DNA of 64,000 nt from an uncultured Ruficoccus sp. (GCA_965140785.1 OZ223521.1:32001-96000); one strand, 5' to 3'. Positions 27,201-33,200 are shown, numbered from the stretch's first letter. Program-made: the numbers.

Positions 27201-30200
27201 CAGCCGCTGCTCGGGCGCTTCTACGGGCTTTTTCGGGCCGTCAGCCTGATCGACGGGATGGTTTTCAACTACTGGATCATGGGCAAGGTGCCCAGCCACT
27301 TTACGGTCATCCTGGTCGGGGTCGGGATCTTCTACGGAGGCGCGTTCCTGTGGGTCTGCCTGCGGGTCAAGGAGGGGAAATACCCGCCGCCTCCGCCGCC
27401 GTCCGAGCAGAAGGGCCTCAAGGGGGCGGCGCTCGGCGTGCGCGGCTACCTGCGTGAGTGTTTTTCAAATCCGTATTACCTCTGCGTTTTCATTTTGCTG
27501 ATGGCCGCGCAGTTGTCCTTTATGCCGGTCAACGTGTTTGCGATCCCCTTTGCCCGGAGCGTGGGGGTGGACATGGACGTTTACGGCAAGTACCTGGCGC
27601 TGACCTTTCTGATCTCGCTATGCCTGTCGTATCCGCTGGGCTGGATGGCGGATCTGTTCCATCCGCTGCGGATGGCGATCGGCACCATGGTCGGCTACGC
27701 GCTGGTGACGGCCTGGGGGTGGGCTCACGCGGACAGCTCCCATTATTTCCTGTCTGCGTGGGTGATGCACGGCGTGCTCTCGGGCTGCTACTTTACGAGC
27801 GCGGCTTCGCTCATGCAGCGGCTCTTCCCGCATGAGAAATTCGCCCAGTTCGCCTCGGCCGCAGGGATGCTCATGGCTCCGATGAGCATGGCCATCGCGC
27901 CCGTCATTGGTAGCATTATCGATGTGAGCGGCGGGGTGTACCGCTACACCTTTGCCGGGGGGTGCGTGTTGTCCGTCCTGGCTCTCGGGGCCGGGTTCGT
28001 CGTGCACGCACGCTTCATGAAGCTCGGCGGTCCGAAAAACTACGTGGCACCGCAGTAAGTCCGGGCCGGTGGACACGTTTAGAGCCCATTCTCGGAAGGG
28101 TTGGAAAGCAACACACGCCCATCCTACAAGCATTTTAGGAATGGTTTTAACCACAGATGGGCACAGATAGAGCTGAAATAATCTGTGTCCATCTGTGTCA
28201 TCTGTGGTTAAATATAAAGCTATTTACGGCTACGGCTTTATTTAACTACTCTAGCCAGTTGCACCCCGGCGGGTGATCAAGAGGAAGGGCGGAACGATCT
28301 CGCTGCGGTCCTGCAGCGCGCGGAACACGATTGAACGGCCCTGATGCTCCCTGCAGCCTTCGCGCCTTGGCGGTTAATCCCCCTGGTCAATCGCGACGCT
28401 CTTAGCGCGTTGCTGGTTGGGGCGCGCTCTCGAAGAAATTGCGGACCATGAGCTCGCGGGTGTTGGGACGGTCGCGGCTGGGGGGCTGGTCGAGCAGCAC
28501 GATGCTCGAGCGCGTATTGGGGAGCGTCACCTGCGGGTTGCTGGTGCGCAGGGTCCATTCCCCGTCTTCCCAGACCGCCGCTTGTAACCAGGTCTGGTGC
28601 TTGCCCTCGGCGTAGTCGAAGAGTGCGGTTTGCCCGGGGTTAAGCTCAACGATCTTGTCGCCGACCTTGGCCATGGTCTTGCGCCGGGAGAAGTTAAAAA
28701 TCCTGATCGTGCCCAGCGGGTGCTCCTGCCAGGAGTCTTCCACCACGTGGCTGCGGATGTCGAATTTGTCAGCCGGGTTGACCTGCATGAAAACGAGATA
28801 GGGGCCGCCGTTGCCGAGCTTAAACGTGCTCAGCGTCTCTTTCGTCGGAGCGGTGTTGGGCTCGACGGCGGGAATCACACGGTACAGCTCCACCTCCTGC
28901 CCGGCGTCGGCCCGGCGGGGAGAGGATAACGACGTGCTGCCGGCGGAAATCCGGATGGGCTTGTCGTGGTAATCGTAAAAGACATTCGAGACCGGCGCTC
29001 CCAACGCGAGCATCCGGAAGGTGACAGGCTGGCTCTTGCTGCTCGCTCCCTGTCCATACCCGCCCAGCGGGAGCCCCGCGCCCAAAGCGAGCGCGCAGGC
29101 GAGGGGGAGGAGGGACTTTAGATTTCTTCGGAAGAGAGCCATTGGAAAGCAACGATTTTGAATTTACGGCCAAAGCTTTTGTTGGCCGCGTTGAGGGCGG
29201 TGAGGGTGTCCTCGGGCGCGTTGCCGCTCGGGTCGGCATATTCGGGTTCGCGCTGAACGATGGCCTCGCACCAGGCGCGTGCCAGTGGCTCGCCCGTGAA
29301 CGGGTCGGTGACCTCGCCGTAGCTGCGGATGCGAAAGGTGTCGGAACGGGCGCTCAGCCCCGCGCCGATAGCCGAGAGGATATCGGCCTGGGTGAGGAAC
29401 TGCGGCGCGAAGGCGGACAGTGAGCCCGTGGGCACATTGGCGTCAAAGCTGCCGCTGTAGCCCTGCATCAGCTCCGCGTCGTAAACATCGGACACGTTGC
29501 TGTAGTTGGGCACCTCGTCCATGTGGAAGGGGTTGCTGCCGGAGTAGCCGTAGGCGGTGTCTTCACCGCTGTTGGCGGCCCCGGTGCCGGAGGGGGTGGC
29601 GTCGATGGCGGCTTGGAGGGCCCCCTTGAAGCGTTCGTCCTCGGCGGTGTTCGGGTTGTCTACCAGACGGCGGTTGATAAAGTCGGCCATCGAGACGAAG
29701 GGGCCGCGGGCGCGGATCTCGGTCACGATGTTGTGGGCCAGCTCTGCGATCTGCTCCTCGGTCAACTGTCGGTAGCCTTTCCAGGCCCAGGCCTGGTCGG
29801 TGTCCACCGCGGGCTCGCCGGTGGGCTTGCTGAAGCGCGAGAGCGCGGCGGCCAGCGTGTTGCCGGAAGAGGACTGGTTCTCTGGATCGTAGGGGAGCTG
29901 GTTGATGCCGCCCAGCACAGCCCGCCAAGCCTGCTCGGAGGTGGAGTTGACATTAAACCCGCCTTCCAGTTTCAGCTCACCGGCGGCCAGGCTGGCATTG
30001 CGCAGGTCCTCGTCGGTGGCGGTGTCGGTGCGGACTATCCGGGGGTTGGGCAGCGGAGAGGGGATGGCCGTGGAGTCGGTATCTGTCGAAGTCCCGGTAC
30101 CCGCGTGCGGCACCGTGGAGACGAAATACTGGTCCCACAGCGCACGGTTGAGCAGCCACGAAATATCGTAGTACGAGTCCATCAGGTTGGATGGGGCCAA

Positions 30201-33200
30201 CGTTTCGCTCAGGTTACGAAGAAGTTGGCCGCGGCTATCTCGGAAGTGGAAGTCACCGAGGCTGTTACCTATTGGGTAGGCTGGGTAGGTGTTGACGTAG
30301 GAAAGATTGGCGTGCTGGAGCTGCCCGAGGCTGAGCAAAGGCTGGTCGCTGGGGCGGAACTCAAAGAGCGTGGCATCTACGATGCTTGAGCCCGAGTCAA
30401 GGTTTGGCCCAGCCGAAGCGCGCAGCCCATCAGTGTTTCGGGTGAACTGGTCCACGATACTGTCCATGCCGCCACCCGCGCTGATGTTCGTGGGGTTTTT
30501 GCTGATCGTGCGCAATGTGTATAGAGAGCGCGGGTTGCTCTGGGCGAGCCAGCGCACATCAGGATAGGTCTTGGTCTGAAGGCTTTCGCCGAAATTGCGC
30601 ATGATGAAGAGGGACGAGGTCGGCTGATAGACGCCGCCCAGTTGCGCGGGCTGCTGGAAGTATTCGTTGCGGTTGTTAAAGATATTATAGTTGCCGTCCA
30701 CGGCGGGCGAGATGCGAGTAATGAGCTGATACCATTGCTTGTCGTTTGAGTCGTCGGTGACGACATTGCGGCTGGCGCTGTCGCGGACTTCTCCCAGATA
30801 GGCGTTGAGCTCGCCGCCGGACAGGCTGAAGGCTCCCGAGTCATAACCGTTTTTATTGTCGCGGTCGATGATCAGGTGAGCACCCGTGACGCGGAACCTT
30901 TTCTGTTGCAACACCGGATTTCCCTCTCCATCGGTACCGGCGGGCTCGAAATCATCTGAGTCAAAAACCGCTCCGTTGTTCAAGAGCACATGGCCATAGG
31001 TGTCGAGCCCGTTGGTGAGCGTGTTCTGGGGTTCCTGGTCTTTGTCAGCCTTATAGTCCTTGCCGATCTCGCTGTCTTGGAGGGTGAAGATCAGGCTCTG
31101 GCCCGGGGGAATGGCCGGACAGTCCACCTTGAAGCGCACATAGCTGTAGGCATCCCCTGTGCCCGCCAGTTTACCACCTCGGTTAAAGTCCACGGTTTCC
31201 TTGACGGCCCAGCCGTCCTTTCCAGGGTCTTTGCTGTCGTTATAAACCTTGGTGTCATCTTCGACCTGGAGCTGGTACTCGCCCCGGTTGTAAGCCATGA
31301 TGCCGACCTCGTACTCGTGGGCTTTGATCGTGGTGGTGTAGGGGTTCCACAGGACGACGAGGGGGAACATGGCCACCTGGATGGGTTCGCCGGGGGCGGC
31401 GCCGTTGGGGGCGGCGTATTGGAGGCCGAGCGAGAAGTAGGAGAGGACCGGGGCGATGCCGACATCGGTCCGGGTGGGCAGGCGCGGGTCGAGCCCGCCG
31501 GTGCTGGCCGTGGTCTGTGCGAAGGAGCGCAGCGCGCCCCAGGTGGGGACGCCGAAGAGGTCGCCGGAGGAAAGGCTCTCGGCGGCGAAGATCGTGTCCG
31601 AGTCAGCCGGGCTGGTGGCTCCGGTGGCGAGGACGGCGGAGAGGTCCTGCTTGAGGCCCCCGGCGTAGGTGTCCGTGAGCAGCGAGTAGGAGTAGGGGGT
31701 CAGGTCGTGGAAGCGGTGCTTGACGGCGGTGCTCATGCTGGCGGCGTCCTGCGCCACCATAGGCAGGTCGTCGAGCGAGTTGAGCTTGGTCAGGGTGCCG
31801 CTGGCGGGGTCGTAGTTCGTGCCGATGAGGTTGGCCGTGCTGTAGGTGTCCCCGGCCACTTTATTAACCAGCTCGATAGCGTTGCGTTGCGAGGAGACAA
31901 AAGCGGCGGCGAGCTGGTTGTTTCCGGCCATGGGCAGTGAGACGCTGGCCTTGGTGCCTTCGTCACCGATCCACCAGGCGTAGCGGCCCTCTGTGCCGCC
32001 GTTGGAGCCGGAGACGCTGACCAGCGGCGCGGCCACATAGTCGGTGGTGTCGGTGACGGAGTTTTCCCCGACCAGTAGTGCCTGGTCGTCGCCACTGCCG
32101 GGCAGGACGCTGGCCTGCGCGAGATTGACAGCGCTTGAGGGCGTGAACGACCAGCCGCCGGGCGCGTTGACGATGTGCCCGTCGTCGTCCACATCCGCCG
32201 CCGGGTCAAAGGTGGTGCCCTCGTTCCCGCTGACGAGCCAGTTCAGCAGGACGGCTTGCGAGCCCTTGCCGTTGGAGTTGCCGGTGATGGCGGTGGCGAG
32301 GGAGGACGGCGTCTGCCCGTAATCAATGGGCGCTGCGTTGCCATAGACGCCGAGCCAATGGCCGTTGGCGGTCGTGGTGTCGGCGAGGGTTTCGTCCATG
32401 TTGGCCAGGGCGGTCACGCGCTGGTCCGGCCCGGCGTACTTCTGGAGCTGGCCGAGGGCGATGTTCAGGCCCGTGAGGGCGTTTTGCTGGGCCTGGAGCA
32501 TGCGCTGGTTCGAGGTCGAGGCCTGAGTCTCGATCTGGGTCATGGCTGCGAGTGAATACAGTAACAGCACGATGAAGCCCATCAGCACGAGGGACATGAT
32601 GAGAGCGAAGCCCTGGCGGGCCTGTGGGGTGCCCGCCAAGGCATGGGCGCGCTTACTGGCGCCCGTCTGTCTGTGGGAAAAGTTTTTCATGGGGTAAGGT
32701 CTGCCAAGGGTCGTTTGGGCCGTTGAGAAAGGCGACCGCGTCGATAAAGACACCGGCGGTCCAGCCCATCATGGCCGGCGGTTCGGCCTCAATGCTGGTT
32801 TGCGCGGTGCCGTCTATGAAATTCTCGGGATTGATCAGGTAGCCCGCCTCAGCGGTGGTACGATGGGAGCCGTCGAGCGCGTTGTACTTCTCCCAGAGGT
32901 CGCCGGTTTGGGCGTAGGTGCGGCAGACGCTGTTGACATATTTATCGGCGATCCGGCGGGCTTCTTTAAGGTAGCCGTAGCGCTCAAGTCCGCGGTAAAC
33001 GAGGTGCTGGATGCCGGGCCAGGCGTTCGTATGATCCCACTGGAAGGGGCTGGGCGGCTCGCTCGGGGCGACCGCGGAGACGCCCCGTCATATTCCAACA
33101 GCGGCAGGACATGGGCAACGACCCCGGCGGCCTGCTCTTCGCTGGCCAGTCCGGTCCACAGCGGCTGGAAAGCCGCGGCGGTGATCGCCGGGCTGTGGCG

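What a model noticed while it worked through the whole genome (the two positions that open the first line are those of the whole stretch)
28402..32690. Fourteen giant GspK-like tip pseudopilins, each with a beta-sandwich partner, sit in glycan-utilisation loci
This genome holds 14 paralogous ~1,010-1,270-aa proteins without any Pfam/NCBIfam family (example g03821, C50:61118-64690) whose predicted fold is a GspK/XcpX minor pseudopilin split by a ~800-aa insertion, and 13 of 14 are translationally coupled to a ~225-262-aa secreted tandem beta-sandwich protein (example g03820, C50:60402-61142) predicted to bind the hypervariable part of the insertion. I read them as substrate-specific tips of a type II/type IV pseudopilus that capture or present polysaccharides for the neighbouring glycan-degrading genes: a Verrucomicrobial counterpart of the SusC/D-type glycan-capture devices of Bacteroidota. 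New would be a function for a large orphan family (only a [...]
Evidence so far: All-vs-all BLASTP clusters 14 no-Pfam proteins g00211,g00303,g00884,g01445,g01779,g02057,g02591,g02600,g02652,g03065,g03588,g03821,g03833,g03865 and 8 of their small neighbours; 13 of 14 have a same-strand downstream gene of 225-262 aa at -24..+26 nt, the 14th is followed by two fragments. Pfam: nothing at E<=1 but one 13-bit hit; NCBIfam: only residues 26-84 hit TIGR02600 (23 bits, cut-off 332) and T2SS GspK. AlphaFold2 model of g03821 with 40 homologues: pLDDT 80, pTM 0.82; VIA-align against 48,161 PDB chains: best XcpX 5vtm_X Z 9.6 (231 of 259 aligned) and GspK 3ci0_K Z 9.3 (243 of 280), the aligned model range running from residue 56 to 1190, so that the small GspK fold is spread over bo [...]
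(Added by a program. Inside this text positions count along the whole contig: contig position 32,001 is position 1 of the stretch shown here. "Call 12" and the like, gene names such as g00115 and contig names such as C1 are that model's own, and its searches are not shown. The text may have been shortened before it was handed on; [...] marks where a part breaks off. The agent that wrote the report below was given it as the finding of a first reader that could run no searches.)

Follow-up and report, generated by a model that had tools for sequence, protein, structure and literature searches.

The report
Exchangeable giant pilus caps, glycan loci
A Verrucomicrobial genome carries fifteen copies of a giant relative of the protein that caps secretion pili, each paired with a small secreted partner and placed in a sugar-polymer degradation locus, which suggests one pilus stem with many substrate-specific heads.

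Summary
Window 29118-32690(-) encodes a 1,190-aa protein and 28402-29142(-) a 246-aa secreted partner that overlaps it by 25 nt.

- **Copies:** the genome holds 15 full-length copies (not 14), plus one cut by a contig end and one fragmentary. All 15 are followed by a partner gene, one of them frameshifted.
- **Fold:** my model (pLDDT 89) matches GspK (Z 14.4, 247 of 280 aligned) and XcpX (Z 13.4), far above all other chains. Residues 481-760 are hypervariable.
- **Partner:** a tandem beta-sandwich (pLDDT 92).
- **Spread:** the pair is conserved across Verrucomicrobiota and one Kiritimatiellota genome (71 of 79 loci).

New here:
- In two Chthoniobacterales-type loci the pair sits directly before H/I/J-like pseudopilins.
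- This genome keeps one conserved G-G-H-I-J cassette without a cap gene. That cassette is related to those H/I/J genes, not to the canonical T2SS, which has its own GspK.
- LacI regulators lie within 10 kb of 13 of 15 copies (3.5 expected).

The tip-pseudopilin identity is well supported.

The family is a divergent relative of the uncharacterised 'Verru_Chthon cassette protein A'. I class it as a new variant of a known kind, of high interest.

The parts
29118..32690 (-). Giant GspK-like cap pseudopilin, copy 1 (1190 aa from the ATG at 32690; an upstream GTG at 32753 would give 1211 aa)
   Evidence: ORF. Model pLDDT 89.2. GspK 3ci0_K Z 14.4 and XcpX 5vtm_X Z 13.4. An independent contig of run X1 covers 28210-32907 with 0 differences.
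32433..32612 (-). Prepilin-like N-terminus: G27|F28-A-L-I and a 59-residue helix (residues 28-86), with no Glu at +5
   Evidence: G27, F28, A29 and L30 are invariant or nearly invariant in 25-118 homologues. Helix 28-86 in the model. This is the only stretch that hits TIGR02600 and NF037980 and that aligns to TIGR02600 members by hhalign (probability 96.4).
30411..31250 (-). Hypervariable part of the inserted beta-rich module (residues ~481-760)
   Evidence: Pairwise identity among the 15 paralogues is 0.10-0.23 here, against 0.3-0.48 in the flanks. Against the 81%-identical orthologue P0002, identity falls to 43-58% here while the flanks are 83-95%. Beta strands span 415-742 in the model. Only weak Ig/FN3-like matches, Z 3-4.
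29121..30173 (-). C-terminal half of the GspK-like core (residues ~840-1190), with the GGFNVNSTS..AWRA and RSDTF.IR.YGE motifs
   Evidence: Most conserved part of the family. The structural alignment to GspK runs from residue 56 to 1190.
28402..29142 (-). Secreted partner, copy 1 (246 aa): signal peptide plus two beta-sandwich domains; overlaps the cap gene by 25 nt
   Evidence: ORF. Model pLDDT 91.8, domains 39-135 and 145-239. Best fold match is the PepT2 extracellular domain, Z 12.4-12.7. The family profile finds 4138 representatives at E<=1e-3.
43878..47369 (-). Giant GspK-like cap pseudopilin, copy 2 (1163 aa, 59% identical to copy 1)
   Evidence: tblastn and blastp.
43189..43902 (-). Partner, copy 2 (237 aa from the ATG at 43902, 40% identical to partner 1); overlaps its cap gene by 25 nt
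32835..34015 (-). GH37 trehalase gene directly upstream on the same strand. The window shows it in two frames.
   Evidence: Pfam Trehalase, 7e-46 and 8e-10. Run X2 at depth 20 has one extra base behind 33082 and one behind 33784, while the window there rests on depth-2 contigs. The breaks are therefore probably assembly errors.
34023..35458 (-). Polysaccharide lyase (PF14099) with a LamG/CBM-like C-terminus, further upstream on the same strand. The window shows it in three frames.
   Evidence: Pfam. Single-base differences at 34747 (X1 and X2) and 35255 (X1).
24239..25282 (-). LacI-family regulator of the locus of copy 1
   Evidence: Pfam LacI 1.7e-12. Enrichment test.
26580..28058 (+). MFS sugar-type transporter next to partner 1
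   Evidence: Pfam MFS_1 and MFS_2.
47552..54479 (.). Locus of copy 2: GH130 (47552-48535 -), heparinase II/III-like (48573-50846 -), SSF symporter (51367-52698 -), LacI (53418-54479 +)
   Evidence: Pfam.

Best explanation
Each large protein is a cap (GspK-class) minor pseudopilin of a type II secretion / type IV pilus-like filament.

**How it is built (shown by fold and sequence)**
- The GspK core is formed by the N-terminal ~330 and C-terminal ~350 residues.
- A beta-rich module of several hundred residues is inserted between them. Its residues ~481-760 differ in every copy.

**How I think it works (inferred)**
- The prepilin peptidase cuts at G|FAL.
- The cap is mounted on a shared stem made by the single cap-less G-G-H-I-J pseudopilin cassette of this genome (contig C18).
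- Each glycan-utilisation locus supplies its own cap and its own co-translated secreted partner, under the locus's sugar-responsive regulator. The cell thus builds filaments with a head matched to the polysaccharide on offer.
- The variable module, together with the tandem beta-sandwich partner, forms the recognition head.

**Most likely role (inferred, untested)**
The head binds the locus's polysaccharide at the cell surface and holds it or draws it in for the neighbouring enzymes and transporters. This would be a functional analogue, not a homologue, of SusC/D-type capture.
For: **Fold and sequence**
- GspK 3ci0_K Z 14.4 (247 of 280 aligned) and XcpX Z 13.4. The next match is ComZ, another pilin with a large inserted domain, at Z 7.6, and everything else is <=5.4.
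- GFAL[IV] plus a 59-residue helix without Glu5 in all copies.

**Link to H/I/J pseudopilins**
- In L090 (Chthoniobacterales) and L091 (Terrimicrobiaceae) the order is cap - partner - H-like - I-like - J-like pilins.
- The own genome has a G-G-H-I-J cassette with no cap gene (L017). Its H, I and J match those of L090/L091 position for position (E 8e-6, 1e-7, 4e-17). They do not match the canonical T2SS H/I/J (E>=0.02).
- The canonical T2SS operon has its own 374-aa GspK (108 bits).
- A J orthologue was found in each of five other genomes that hold cap-partner loci. In the three regions I fetched there was no cap-family hit within 12 kb. One region showed the full G-G-H-I-J run, one showed G2-I-J, and one only G1 and J with my crude gene caller.

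**Machinery present:** 5 secretins, 7 ATPases, platform proteins, 1 prepilin peptidase.

**Strict pairing with the partner**
- 15 of 15 in this genome, with no orphan partner.
- 71 of 79 loci across the phylum.

**Locus-specific head:** hypervariability is confined to residues 481-760, even against an 81%-identical orthologue.

**Sugar regulation and glycan context**
- LacI within 10 kb of 13 of 15 copies against 3.5 expected.
- Neighbours are GHs, PLs, sulfatases, esterases and MFS_2/SSF transporters.
- Only 2-3 TonB-dependent receptors in the genome, none at these loci.

**Precedent in the phylum**
- A type IV-like pilus locus is tied to mucin and fucoidan uptake in Akkermansiaceae (PMC13174399, passages read).
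- A PulG-like pseudopilin sits in an alginate-induced operon of an Opitutales isolate (PMC13274419, section 17 read).
Against: - No experiment and no expression data: no RNA run holds the stretch.
- No carbohydrate-binding family or fold was recognised in the insertion or the partner. Pfam hits 0 of 25. Foldseek E>=0.0075. VIA gives only Ig/FN3-like Z 3-4 for residues 420-685. The partner's CBM-like matches reach only Z 5.8-6.7, below unrelated folds.
- Small pseudopilin genes are not enriched near the caps in this genome: 2 of 15 within 10 kb against 4.0 expected. Only 7 of 79 foreign loci have any prepilin-like ORF within 6 kb.
- 7 of 27 foreign loci show no glycan-related neighbour, and the own locus on C17 is weak.
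- The genome is rich in glycan loci and LacI genes cluster, so part of the association is background.
- An earlier follow-up on another genome (e1-5151339) judged the link to sulfated-sugar use unsupported there.
Confidence: 0.45

Rival explanations
1. **Cargo-selecting secretion caps.** The same filament anatomy applies, but the variable head plus partner recognises the locus's own secreted enzymes (lyases, hydrolases, sulfatases) and hands them to the type II secretion piston. Each locus would then bring its own export adaptor.
For: - The cap, pairing, synteny and regulation evidence is the same.
- Neighbouring enzymes often have signal peptides and must cross the outer membrane.
- In canonical T2SS the GspK-I-J tip faces the substrate in the secretin vestibule (established knowledge, recalled).
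- The Verruconatronum paper proposes T2SS export of its alginate lyases (PMC13274419).
- No CBM-like fold was found in the head.
Against: - The canonical T2SS has its own complete G-H-I-J-K set, and the related stem cassette is a separate, non-T2SS-type one.
- Loci hold several unrelated enzymes, while there is one head per locus.
- Some caps sit in loci without an obvious secreted enzyme.
Confidence: 0.22
2. **Attachment pili.** The caps are tip adhesins of true surface pili that anchor cells to particles or algal or host surfaces rich in the matching glycan. They would have no role in import or secretion.
For: - Fold and tip position.
- Homologues are spread through particle- and host-associated lineages, including Akkermansiaceae, Rubritalea and Luteolibacter.
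- A type IV-like pilus is proposed to mediate attachment to fucose-rich glycans in Akkermansiaceae (PMC13174399).
- Weak fold resemblance of the partner's second domain to Bacteroides/Porphyromonas fimbrial proteins, Z 5.2-5.8.
Against: - Tight embedding beside transporters and cytoplasmic catabolic genes, under LacI/AraC control, fits nutrient acquisition better than general adhesion.
- It is hard to separate from the best explanation, of which it is a weaker form.
Confidence: 0.15
3. **Not filament subunits at all.** The N-terminal helix is a plain membrane anchor. The proteins would be inner-membrane-tethered periplasmic glycan-binding or scaffolding proteins that work with the periplasmic partner, and the GspK-like core is an evolutionary relic.
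For: - No pilin genes lie beside them in this genome.
- They fail the GspK and TIGR02600 models.
- Verrucomicrobia are reported to accumulate glycans in the periplasm (PMC13174399).
Against: - The G|F motif and the whole GspK core, including the C-terminal sheet, are conserved across the phylum.
- There is direct synteny with H/I/J-like pilins in L090 and L091.
- A cap-less stem cassette is kept in genomes with dispersed caps.
Confidence: 0.1

Closest known systems
GspK / XcpX, apical minor pseudopilin of type II secretion (PDB 3CI0 chain K, 5VTM chain X; NCBIfam NF037980; Pfam T2SSK)
   Same: - Fold: Z 14.4 and 13.4, covering 247 of 280 and 225 of 259 residues.
- Prepilin-like N-terminus without Glu5.
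- In relatives it is encoded with H/I/J-like pilins.
   Different: - Four times larger, with a hypervariable beta-rich insertion.
- Fails the sequence models: 19.7 against 130 bits, and no Pfam T2SSK hit.
- 15 dispersed copies outside any secretion operon.
- Always paired with a secreted partner that GspK lacks.
- The genome's real T2SS has its own ordinary GspK.
Verru_Chthon cassette protein A (TIGR02600) with cassette proteins B, C, D (TIGR02598, TIGR02599, TIGR02596): a named but uncharacterised Verrucomicrobia cassette
   Same: - Size about 1,200-1,300 aa.
- Same N-terminal helix: hhalign probability 96.4 over 69 columns.
- A second collinear motif (GRYAWWxGDEGxKA against RIAFWTDDESxKVNIN) is seen weakly in 6 of 6 members.
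- Association with three small pilins.
- Automatic names of homologues.
   Different: - 23.3 bits against a cut-off of 332, and no detectable similarity over the remaining ~1,100 residues.
- True members occur in 3 of 201 sampled genomes of the phylum, whereas this family is widespread.
- True cassettes have a pilin gene, not a partner gene, directly after A: partner HMM hits 0 in those loci, though flanks are only 1.5 kb.
- Here the caps are detached from B, C and D.
ComZ of Thermus thermophilus (PDB 6QVI), competence-pilus minor pilin with a large inserted domain
   Same: Third-best structural match, Z 7.6 with 120 residues aligned. It is a pilin fold interrupted by a large ligand-side domain. 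Its proposed role as a tip-located DNA receptor is recalled, not read here.
   Different: - Half the size.
- A different inserted fold.
- DNA rather than glycan context.
- Single copy and no partner.
SusC/SusD-type glycan capture and import of Bacteroidota
   Same: - One copy per substrate-specific locus.
- Co-regulated with the enzymes.
- A two-protein unit with a fast-evolving recognition part.
- This genome has only 2-3 TonB-dependent receptors, so some other surface device is needed.
   Different: No homology and no shared architecture: no TonB-dependent barrel and no SusD-like TPR lipoprotein. The resemblance is one of logic only, and the function is untested.
Akkermansia MUL2 locus (amuc_1099-1102), a type IV-like pilus needed for mucin uptake, conserved in aquatic Akkermansiaceae
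   Same: Same phylum. A type IV filament is linked to glycan attachment or uptake (PMC13174399, passages read; PMC12418764).
   Different: MUL2 consists of a PilM-like protein, a small archaeal-type pilin and two unknowns in a single locus. As described there it has no giant cap and no cap-partner pair. Davey 2023 and Hughes 2025 are not held, so I could not check whether they mention this family.
Extracellular domain of mammalian PepT1/PepT2 (PDB 5A9H, 5A9D, 7NQK): closest fold of the partner
   Same: Two tandem Ig-like beta-sandwiches, Z 12.4-12.7 over 170-182 residues.
   Different: 11-12% identity, and it is a eukaryotic transporter appendage. The match says only that the partner is a tandem beta-sandwich. 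It gives no functional lead.

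Membership tests
GspK (T2SS minor pseudopilin K; NF037980, Pfam T2SSK/T2SSK_1st) | Sequence model matched above the curated cut-off | tested here: not met
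   NF037980 gives 19.7 bits against 130, on residues 47-117 only. No Pfam family in 25 of 25 members. The genome's canonical GspK scores 107.9 bits with the same model, also under the cut-off of 130.
GspK (T2SS minor pseudopilin K; NF037980, Pfam T2SSK/T2SSK_1st) | GspK fold (pilin core plus alpha domain) | tested here: met
   3ci0_K Z 14.4, rmsd 3.4, 247 of 280 aligned. 5vtm_X Z 13.4, 225 of 259 aligned. Next best Z 7.6. Predicted model, pLDDT 89.2.
GspK (T2SS minor pseudopilin K; NF037980, Pfam T2SSK/T2SSK_1st) | Prepilin-type N-terminus lacking Glu5 | tested here: met
   GFAL[IV] followed by a hydrophobic helix in the paralogue N-termini. Position +5 is M/I/V/L/A.
GspK (T2SS minor pseudopilin K; NF037980, Pfam T2SSK/T2SSK_1st) | Encoded after gspH-I-J inside a T2SS operon | tested here: not met
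   0 of 15 copies lie in a secretion operon, and no pilin gene lies within 3 kb of any. In relatives L090 and L091 the H/I/J-like genes follow the cap and partner.
GspK (T2SS minor pseudopilin K; NF037980, Pfam T2SSK/T2SSK_1st) | Forms the tip complex with GspI and GspJ | not testable with these tools
Indirect only: a cap-less H-I-J cassette of the matching type.
Verru_Chthon cassette protein A (TIGR02600) | Full-length match above 332.3 bits | tested here: not met
   23.3 bits on model positions 1-59 of 1296. 13 places in the genome, all N-terminal and none over the cut-off. The same holds for 10 of the 11 homologues scanned, including two of the three that UniRef names that way; the third, P0032, gave no hit at all.
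Verru_Chthon cassette protein A (TIGR02600) | Homology over the body of the protein | tested here: inconclusive
   hhalign aligns only 69 N-terminal columns. hmmsearch adds a weak collinear second motif in 6 of 6 members, domain E 0.007-0.17. The TIGR02600 alignment had only 5 sequences.
Verru_Chthon cassette protein A (TIGR02600) | Sits in a cassette with pilin-like proteins B, C, D | tested here: not met
   Not in this genome. Relatives L090 and L091 do have D/H-, B/I- and C/J-like genes after the partner, all below the cut-offs of TIGR02596/8/9.
SusC/SusD glycan capture pair | TonB-dependent beta-barrel with plug (SusC) and a TPR lipoprotein lid (SusD) | tested here: not met
   No Pfam hit on the cap or the partner. 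The predicted folds are a pilin-type cap and a tandem beta-sandwich. The genome's 2-3 TonB-dependent receptors lie elsewhere.
Carbohydrate-binding module (any CAZy CBM) in the head or the partner | Recognisable CBM sequence family or fold | tested here: inconclusive
   No Pfam CBM. The partner's C-domain matches CBM26/41/20 at only Z 5.8-6.7, among many unrelated sandwiches. The insertion matches Ig/FN3 at Z 3-4 in a whole-protein search.

The most novel reading that the evidence does not exclude
One conserved pseudopilus stem (the cap-less G-G-H-I-J cassette) accepts any of fifteen sugar-inducible caps. Each cap carries, with its partner, a head specific for one polysaccharide. Extension and retraction of this filament through a secretin harpoons the polymer and pulls it into the periplasm. 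If so, Verrucomicrobiota and Kiritimatiellota would have a filament-based alternative to SusC/D and TonB-dependent import, and this could be the mechanism of their 'selfish' uptake.
Probability: 0.2. Interest if true: 0.92.

Novelty: new variant of a known kind. Interest (0 to 1): 0.72.

Why it matters
Verrucomicrobiota are major degraders of recalcitrant sulfated and fucose-rich polysaccharides in the sea, in soil and in the gut. Yet they lack SusC/D systems, and this genome has only 2-3 TonB-dependent receptors. How they seize and import polymers is an open question.

A phylum-wide gene pair could be the missing surface device. The partner family alone has 4,138 representative clusters, and the pair appears once per glycan locus as a giant cap pseudopilin with a hypervariable head plus a secreted partner.

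It makes the question testable with simple genetics:
- one stem cassette against fifteen caps;
- substrate-specific induction;
- glycan binding by the recombinant head.

It would also widen the known repertoire of type IV filaments to interchangeable, nutrient-specific tips. Finally, it gives a rational annotation for thousands of 'hypothetical proteins'.

Tried and rejected
Neither partner binding nor docking on H-I-J was tested.
- **Expression:** no RNA holder is listed for the stretch.
- **Foldseek against PDB, whole cap model:** nothing at E<=0.001.
- **Family profile against PDB sequences:** 0 hits at E<=10.
- **hhalign of the family against the genome's own single GspK sequence:** nothing (probability 1.7).
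- **Promoter and terminator scan of 27800-36000:** no more than in shuffles.
- **Maximum-likelihood tree of 92 caps:** I replaced it with best-hit BLAST, which shows that most paralogues are closer to proteins of other genomes than to each other.
- **Partner as a PapD-like pilus chaperone:** no such chain is among the listed matches, so this is unsupported but not excluded.
- **Small pseudopilin genes clustering with the caps in this genome:** rejected. 2 of 15 within 10 kb against 4.0 expected.
- **Upstream trehalase and lyase as pseudogenes:** rejected in favour of assembly errors.
- **Papers not held:** Davey et al. 2023 and Hughes et al. 2025. Whether MUL1 proteins relate to this family, or to the TPR-ExbB-ExbD cluster in the window, stays open.
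- **Literature searches that found no description of this family:**
  - 'Verru_Chthon cassette': 0 papers.
  - Verrucomicrobia + pseudopilin + polysaccharide: 4 papers, none on giant caps.
  - GspK + Verrucomicrobiota: 0 papers.
  - Verrucomicrobiota / pilin / polysaccharide utilization / tip: 38 papers, 12 listings seen.
- **Supplementary tables of PMC13274419 and PMC13174399:** not opened. They may list cap homologues among induced or syntenic genes.

Full report
**What is there**

On the minus strand of the window, an ORF at 29118..32753 encodes 1211 aa from a GTG. The ATG at 32690 gives the 1190-aa form used below. It is followed by a 246-aa ORF at 28402..29142 that overlaps it by 25 nt. 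I call them cap and partner.

Neither has a Pfam family. NCBIfam touches only the first ~60 residues of the mature cap. TIGR02600 'Verru_Chthon cassette protein A' scores 23.3 bits against a cut-off of 332.3, and GspK NF037980 scores 19.7 against 130. An independent contig of run X1 covers 28210-32907 without a single difference.

**The paralogous family**

tblastn against the laid genome (4.36 Mb, 50 contigs, 90.85% complete) finds 15 full-length copies of 1035-1277 aa. It also finds one cut by a contig end and one fragmentary.

- A second copy lies in the window at 43878..47369(-), 59% identical, with its own partner at 43189..43902(-).
- The N-termini printed for the copies start GFAL[I/V], followed by a hydrophobic helix with no Glu at +5; one copy has A in place of the G and the contig-end copy reads GFAV.
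- Every full-length copy is followed on the same strand, at -25 to +35 nt, by a partner-family gene with a signal peptide. These are 218-269 aa, and one is split by a frameshift.
- A partner HMM over all ORFs of the genome finds exactly these 15 and no orphan copy, apart from one hit at E 1e-3.
- Partners are only 15-23% identical to each other but align end to end.

**Fold**

With 62 homologues, AlphaFold2 gives pLDDT 89.2 and pTM 0.88. The model has a 59-residue N-terminal helix (28-86), a beta-rich middle (strands 415-742) and a mixed C-terminal part.

Against 48,161 PDB chains:
- GspK 3ci0_K: Z 14.4, rmsd 3.4, 247 of 280 residues aligned.
- XcpX 5vtm_X: Z 13.4, 225 of 259 residues aligned.
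- Both alignments stretch from residue ~56 to 1190.
- The next match is ComZ, a Thermus competence pilin with a big inserted domain, at Z 7.6. All others are <=5.4.

Foldseek finds nothing, and neither does a profile search of PDB sequences.

The partner model (126 sequences, pLDDT 91.8) is two beta-sandwiches. Its best match is the tandem Ig-like extracellular domain of PepT2 or PepT1, Z 12.4-12.7. CBM-like matches reach only Z 5.8-6.7.

**Where the copies differ**

Among the 15 paralogues, pairwise identity is 0.3-0.48 in the N- and C-terminal parts but 0.10-0.23 in residues ~481-760. Even against the closest orthologue (P0002, 81% overall), identity falls to 43-58% in 481-720 while the flanks are 83-95%.

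So the hypervariable part is about 280 residues inside the beta-rich insertion, not the whole ~800 residues.

**Distribution and names**

- The word-based search gives 409 hits and was capped. The best named hits are Cerasicoccus (54-59%), Puniceicoccus, Rariglobus and Opitutaceae. By best hits, the genome is therefore a Cerasicoccus-like member of the Opitutales/Puniceicoccales group.
- Some sources already call homologues 'Verru_Chthon cassette protein A', 'PilX family' or 'PulG'. ESM-Atlas neighbours carry the same automatic names, and the nearest clusters with a Pfam family carry HHH_3 or T2SSK.
- Ten of the eleven homologues scanned likewise hit TIGR02600 only at the N-terminus; the eleventh, P0032, gave no hit.
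- A scan of species-representative genomes gives at least 595 stretches. The 79 kept loci span Opitutaceae, Cerasicoccus, Puniceicoccaceae, Akkermansiaceae, Rubritalea, Luteolibacter, Terrimicrobiaceae, Chthoniobacterales and one Kiritimatiellota genome. Akkermansia glycaniphila has three tandem caps and one partner.
- In 71 of 79 loci a partner-family ORF follows the cap directly. One of the other eight ends with the contig.
- The partner profile finds 4,138 representative clusters at E<=1e-3 and 2,791 at 1e-10, although a word search found only 3.

**Relation to the true Verru_Chthon cassette**

Genuine TIGR02600 members occur in 3 of 201 sampled genomes of the phylum. They are flanked by B/C/D-type pilins, with a pilin rather than a partner directly downstream.

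Profile-profile comparison aligns only the N-terminal 69 columns, at probability 96.4. A second collinear motif is weakly detected in 6 of 6 members.

I therefore treat the family as a sister of TIGR02600 within giant GspK-like caps, not as a member.

**The missing H/I/J proteins**

That is true here: small prepilin genes (66 in the genome) are not enriched near caps. Two of 15 have one within 10 kb, against 4.0 expected.

Three observations fill the gap.

1. In L090 (Chthoniobacterales) and L091 (Terrimicrobiaceae) the order is LacI - cap - partner - H/D-like - I/B-like - J/C-like - GH43, or GH28 in L091.
2. This genome has, on contig C18, a run of G-like, G-like, H/D-like, I/B-like and J/C-like pseudopilin genes with no cap gene (L017:5158-8754).
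   - Its H, I and J match the L090/L091 pilins position for position (E 8e-6, 1e-7, 4e-17).
   - They do not match the H/I/J of the genome's canonical T2SS (E>=0.02).
3. The canonical T2SS operon on C40 is complete, with its own 374-aa GspK.

The J gene has one orthologue in each of five other genomes that carry dispersed caps. I fetched three of those regions, and none held a cap-family hit within 12 kb. With my crude gene caller, one showed the full G-G-H-I-J run, one showed G2-I-J, and one showed only G1 and J.

Secretins (5), assembly ATPases (7), platform proteins and a single prepilin peptidase are present.

This is the basis for 'one stem, many caps'. It is an inference from synteny and homology, not from a tested interaction.

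**Glycan context**

Pfam of 122 neighbours shows LacI or AraC regulators, MFS_2/SSF/ABC sugar transporters, sulfatases and carbohydrate enzymes. These include GH2, 4, 26, 36, 37, 39, 71, 88 and 130, lyases or beta-helix proteins, SASA esterases and CBM96. They occur at 14 of 15 loci; the C17 locus is weak.

- The genome has 55 LacI matches.
- Against 5,000 random placements, a LacI gene lies within 6 kb of 9 of 15 caps (2.6 expected, P 0.0002) and within 10 kb of 13 of 15 (3.5 expected, no random set reached it).
- At 27 loci of other genomes, 17 have a GH/PL/CE/sulfatase among the four nearest ORFs, 3 more have only AraC or hybrid-kinase regulators, and 7 have nothing glycan-related.
- The genome has only 2-3 TonB-dependent receptors, none at these loci.
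- Most paralogues are closer to proteins of other genomes than to each other, for example 82% and 61% to one MAG. The copies are therefore old lineages rather than recent duplicates.

In the window, the genes upstream of copy 1 on the same strand are a PF14099 lyase with a LamG/CBM-like end and a GH37 trehalase. Their apparent frameshifts coincide with single-base differences in deeper independent contigs, at 33082, 33784, 34747 and 35255. They are therefore probably assembly errors.

**How it most likely works**

*Shown:*
- a GspK-type cap fold with a prepilin-like N-terminus;
- a hypervariable inserted module;
- an obligatory, co-located secreted tandem beta-sandwich partner;
- location in sugar-regulated glycan loci;
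- linkage to H/I/J-type pilins in relatives;
- a conserved cap-less stem cassette.

*Inferred:*
- cleavage by the prepilin peptidase;
- assembly on the shared stem;
- the variable module plus partner acting as a locus-specific recognition head;
- the ligand being the locus's polysaccharide.

The main rival, with the same anatomy, is that the head selects the locus's secreted enzymes for export. I cannot separate the two with sequence data. Weaker rivals are plain attachment pili and a membrane-anchored periplasmic protein that no longer joins a filament.

**Literature**

I found no paper on this family. The searches are listed under Tried and rejected.

Related published leads:
- A PulG-like pseudopilin with 67 genomic homologues lies in an alginate-induced operon of an Opitutales isolate (PMC13274419, section 17 and passages read).
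- The MUL2 type IV-like pilus locus is tied to mucin uptake in Akkermansia and is conserved in fucoidan-accumulating aquatic Akkermansiaceae (PMC13174399, passages; PMC12418764, passages).
- mul1A (amuc_0544) is described as a mucin transport gene (PMC12570417, passages).
- Davey 2023 and Hughes 2025 were not available.

Earlier notes of this scan describe the same kind of giant cap in other genomes, and lectin-carrying GspK-like caps in Omnitrophota glycan loci. They are unchecked leads that agree with this reading. One of them judged the sugar link unsupported in its own genome.

**Verdict**

It is a new variant of a known but uncharacterised kind, the giant GspK-like caps of Verrucomicrobia cassettes. 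Its added features are a one-to-one partner, multi-copy dispersal into glycan loci and a shared cap-less stem.

Noticed in passing
window 32835-35458 (positions 33082, 33784, 34747, 35255): The GH37 trehalase and the PF14099 lyase upstream of the cap look frameshifted in the window. Deeper independent contigs differ by one base at exactly these places, and the window rests there on depth-2 contigs. These are probably assembly indel errors, not pseudogenes.
   Followed up: yes
window 35862-42903: A cluster lies between the two cap loci: a 1016-aa TPR protein (35862-38912), ExbB/MotA (40103-40870), ExbD (40905-41318) and a 400-aa protein without a family (41701-42903). The genome has only 2-3 TonB-dependent receptors, so what this ExbBD set energises is unclear. 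A possible likeness to the Akkermansia MUL1 locus is a recollection only and could not be checked because the papers are not held.
   Followed up: partly
L017:5158-8754 (G000 contig C18): A conserved pseudopilin cassette (G-like, G-like, H-like, I-like, J-like) has no cap gene and is followed by a UbiA/MenA-like gene. The same arrangement and the same downstream gene occur in Cerasicoccus arenae (L114).
   Followed up: yes
whole genome: There are 66 prepilin-type N-terminal methylation domains in a 4.36-Mb genome, mostly single genes of 210-320 aa scattered over the contigs. This matches the 67 PulG-like copies reported for Verruconatronum (PMC13274419).
   Followed up: partly
L078 (Akkermansia glycaniphila strain Pyt): Three cap genes stand in tandem (1231, 1270 and 1260 aa), followed by a single partner gene. 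This is an exception to the one-to-one pairing.
   Followed up: no
L013/L018 (G000 contig C46:1-12000): The cap copy cut by the contig start lies about 4-6 kb from an ArdC-like antirestriction/zincin gene and three G-like pilin genes in a row. Behind these is a 1087-aa gene of low GC3. It may be a mobile region.
   Followed up: no
proteins P0133, P0162, P0198: Some partner-family proteins in public data are 448-652 aa, with two or three matched stretches. They are tandem duplications of the partner unit.
   Followed up: no
window 6001-10000 and 52001-62000: Stretches of lower G+C (0.52-0.55 against about 0.60-0.65 elsewhere) with genes of low GC3. They may be acquired islands.
   Followed up: no
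L019:3726-6188 (G000 contig C22): Two small pilin genes are followed by a 465-aa protein with a GspK/PilX-like N-terminus but no family hit. It is a further, mid-sized cap-like gene outside the family studied.
   Followed up: no
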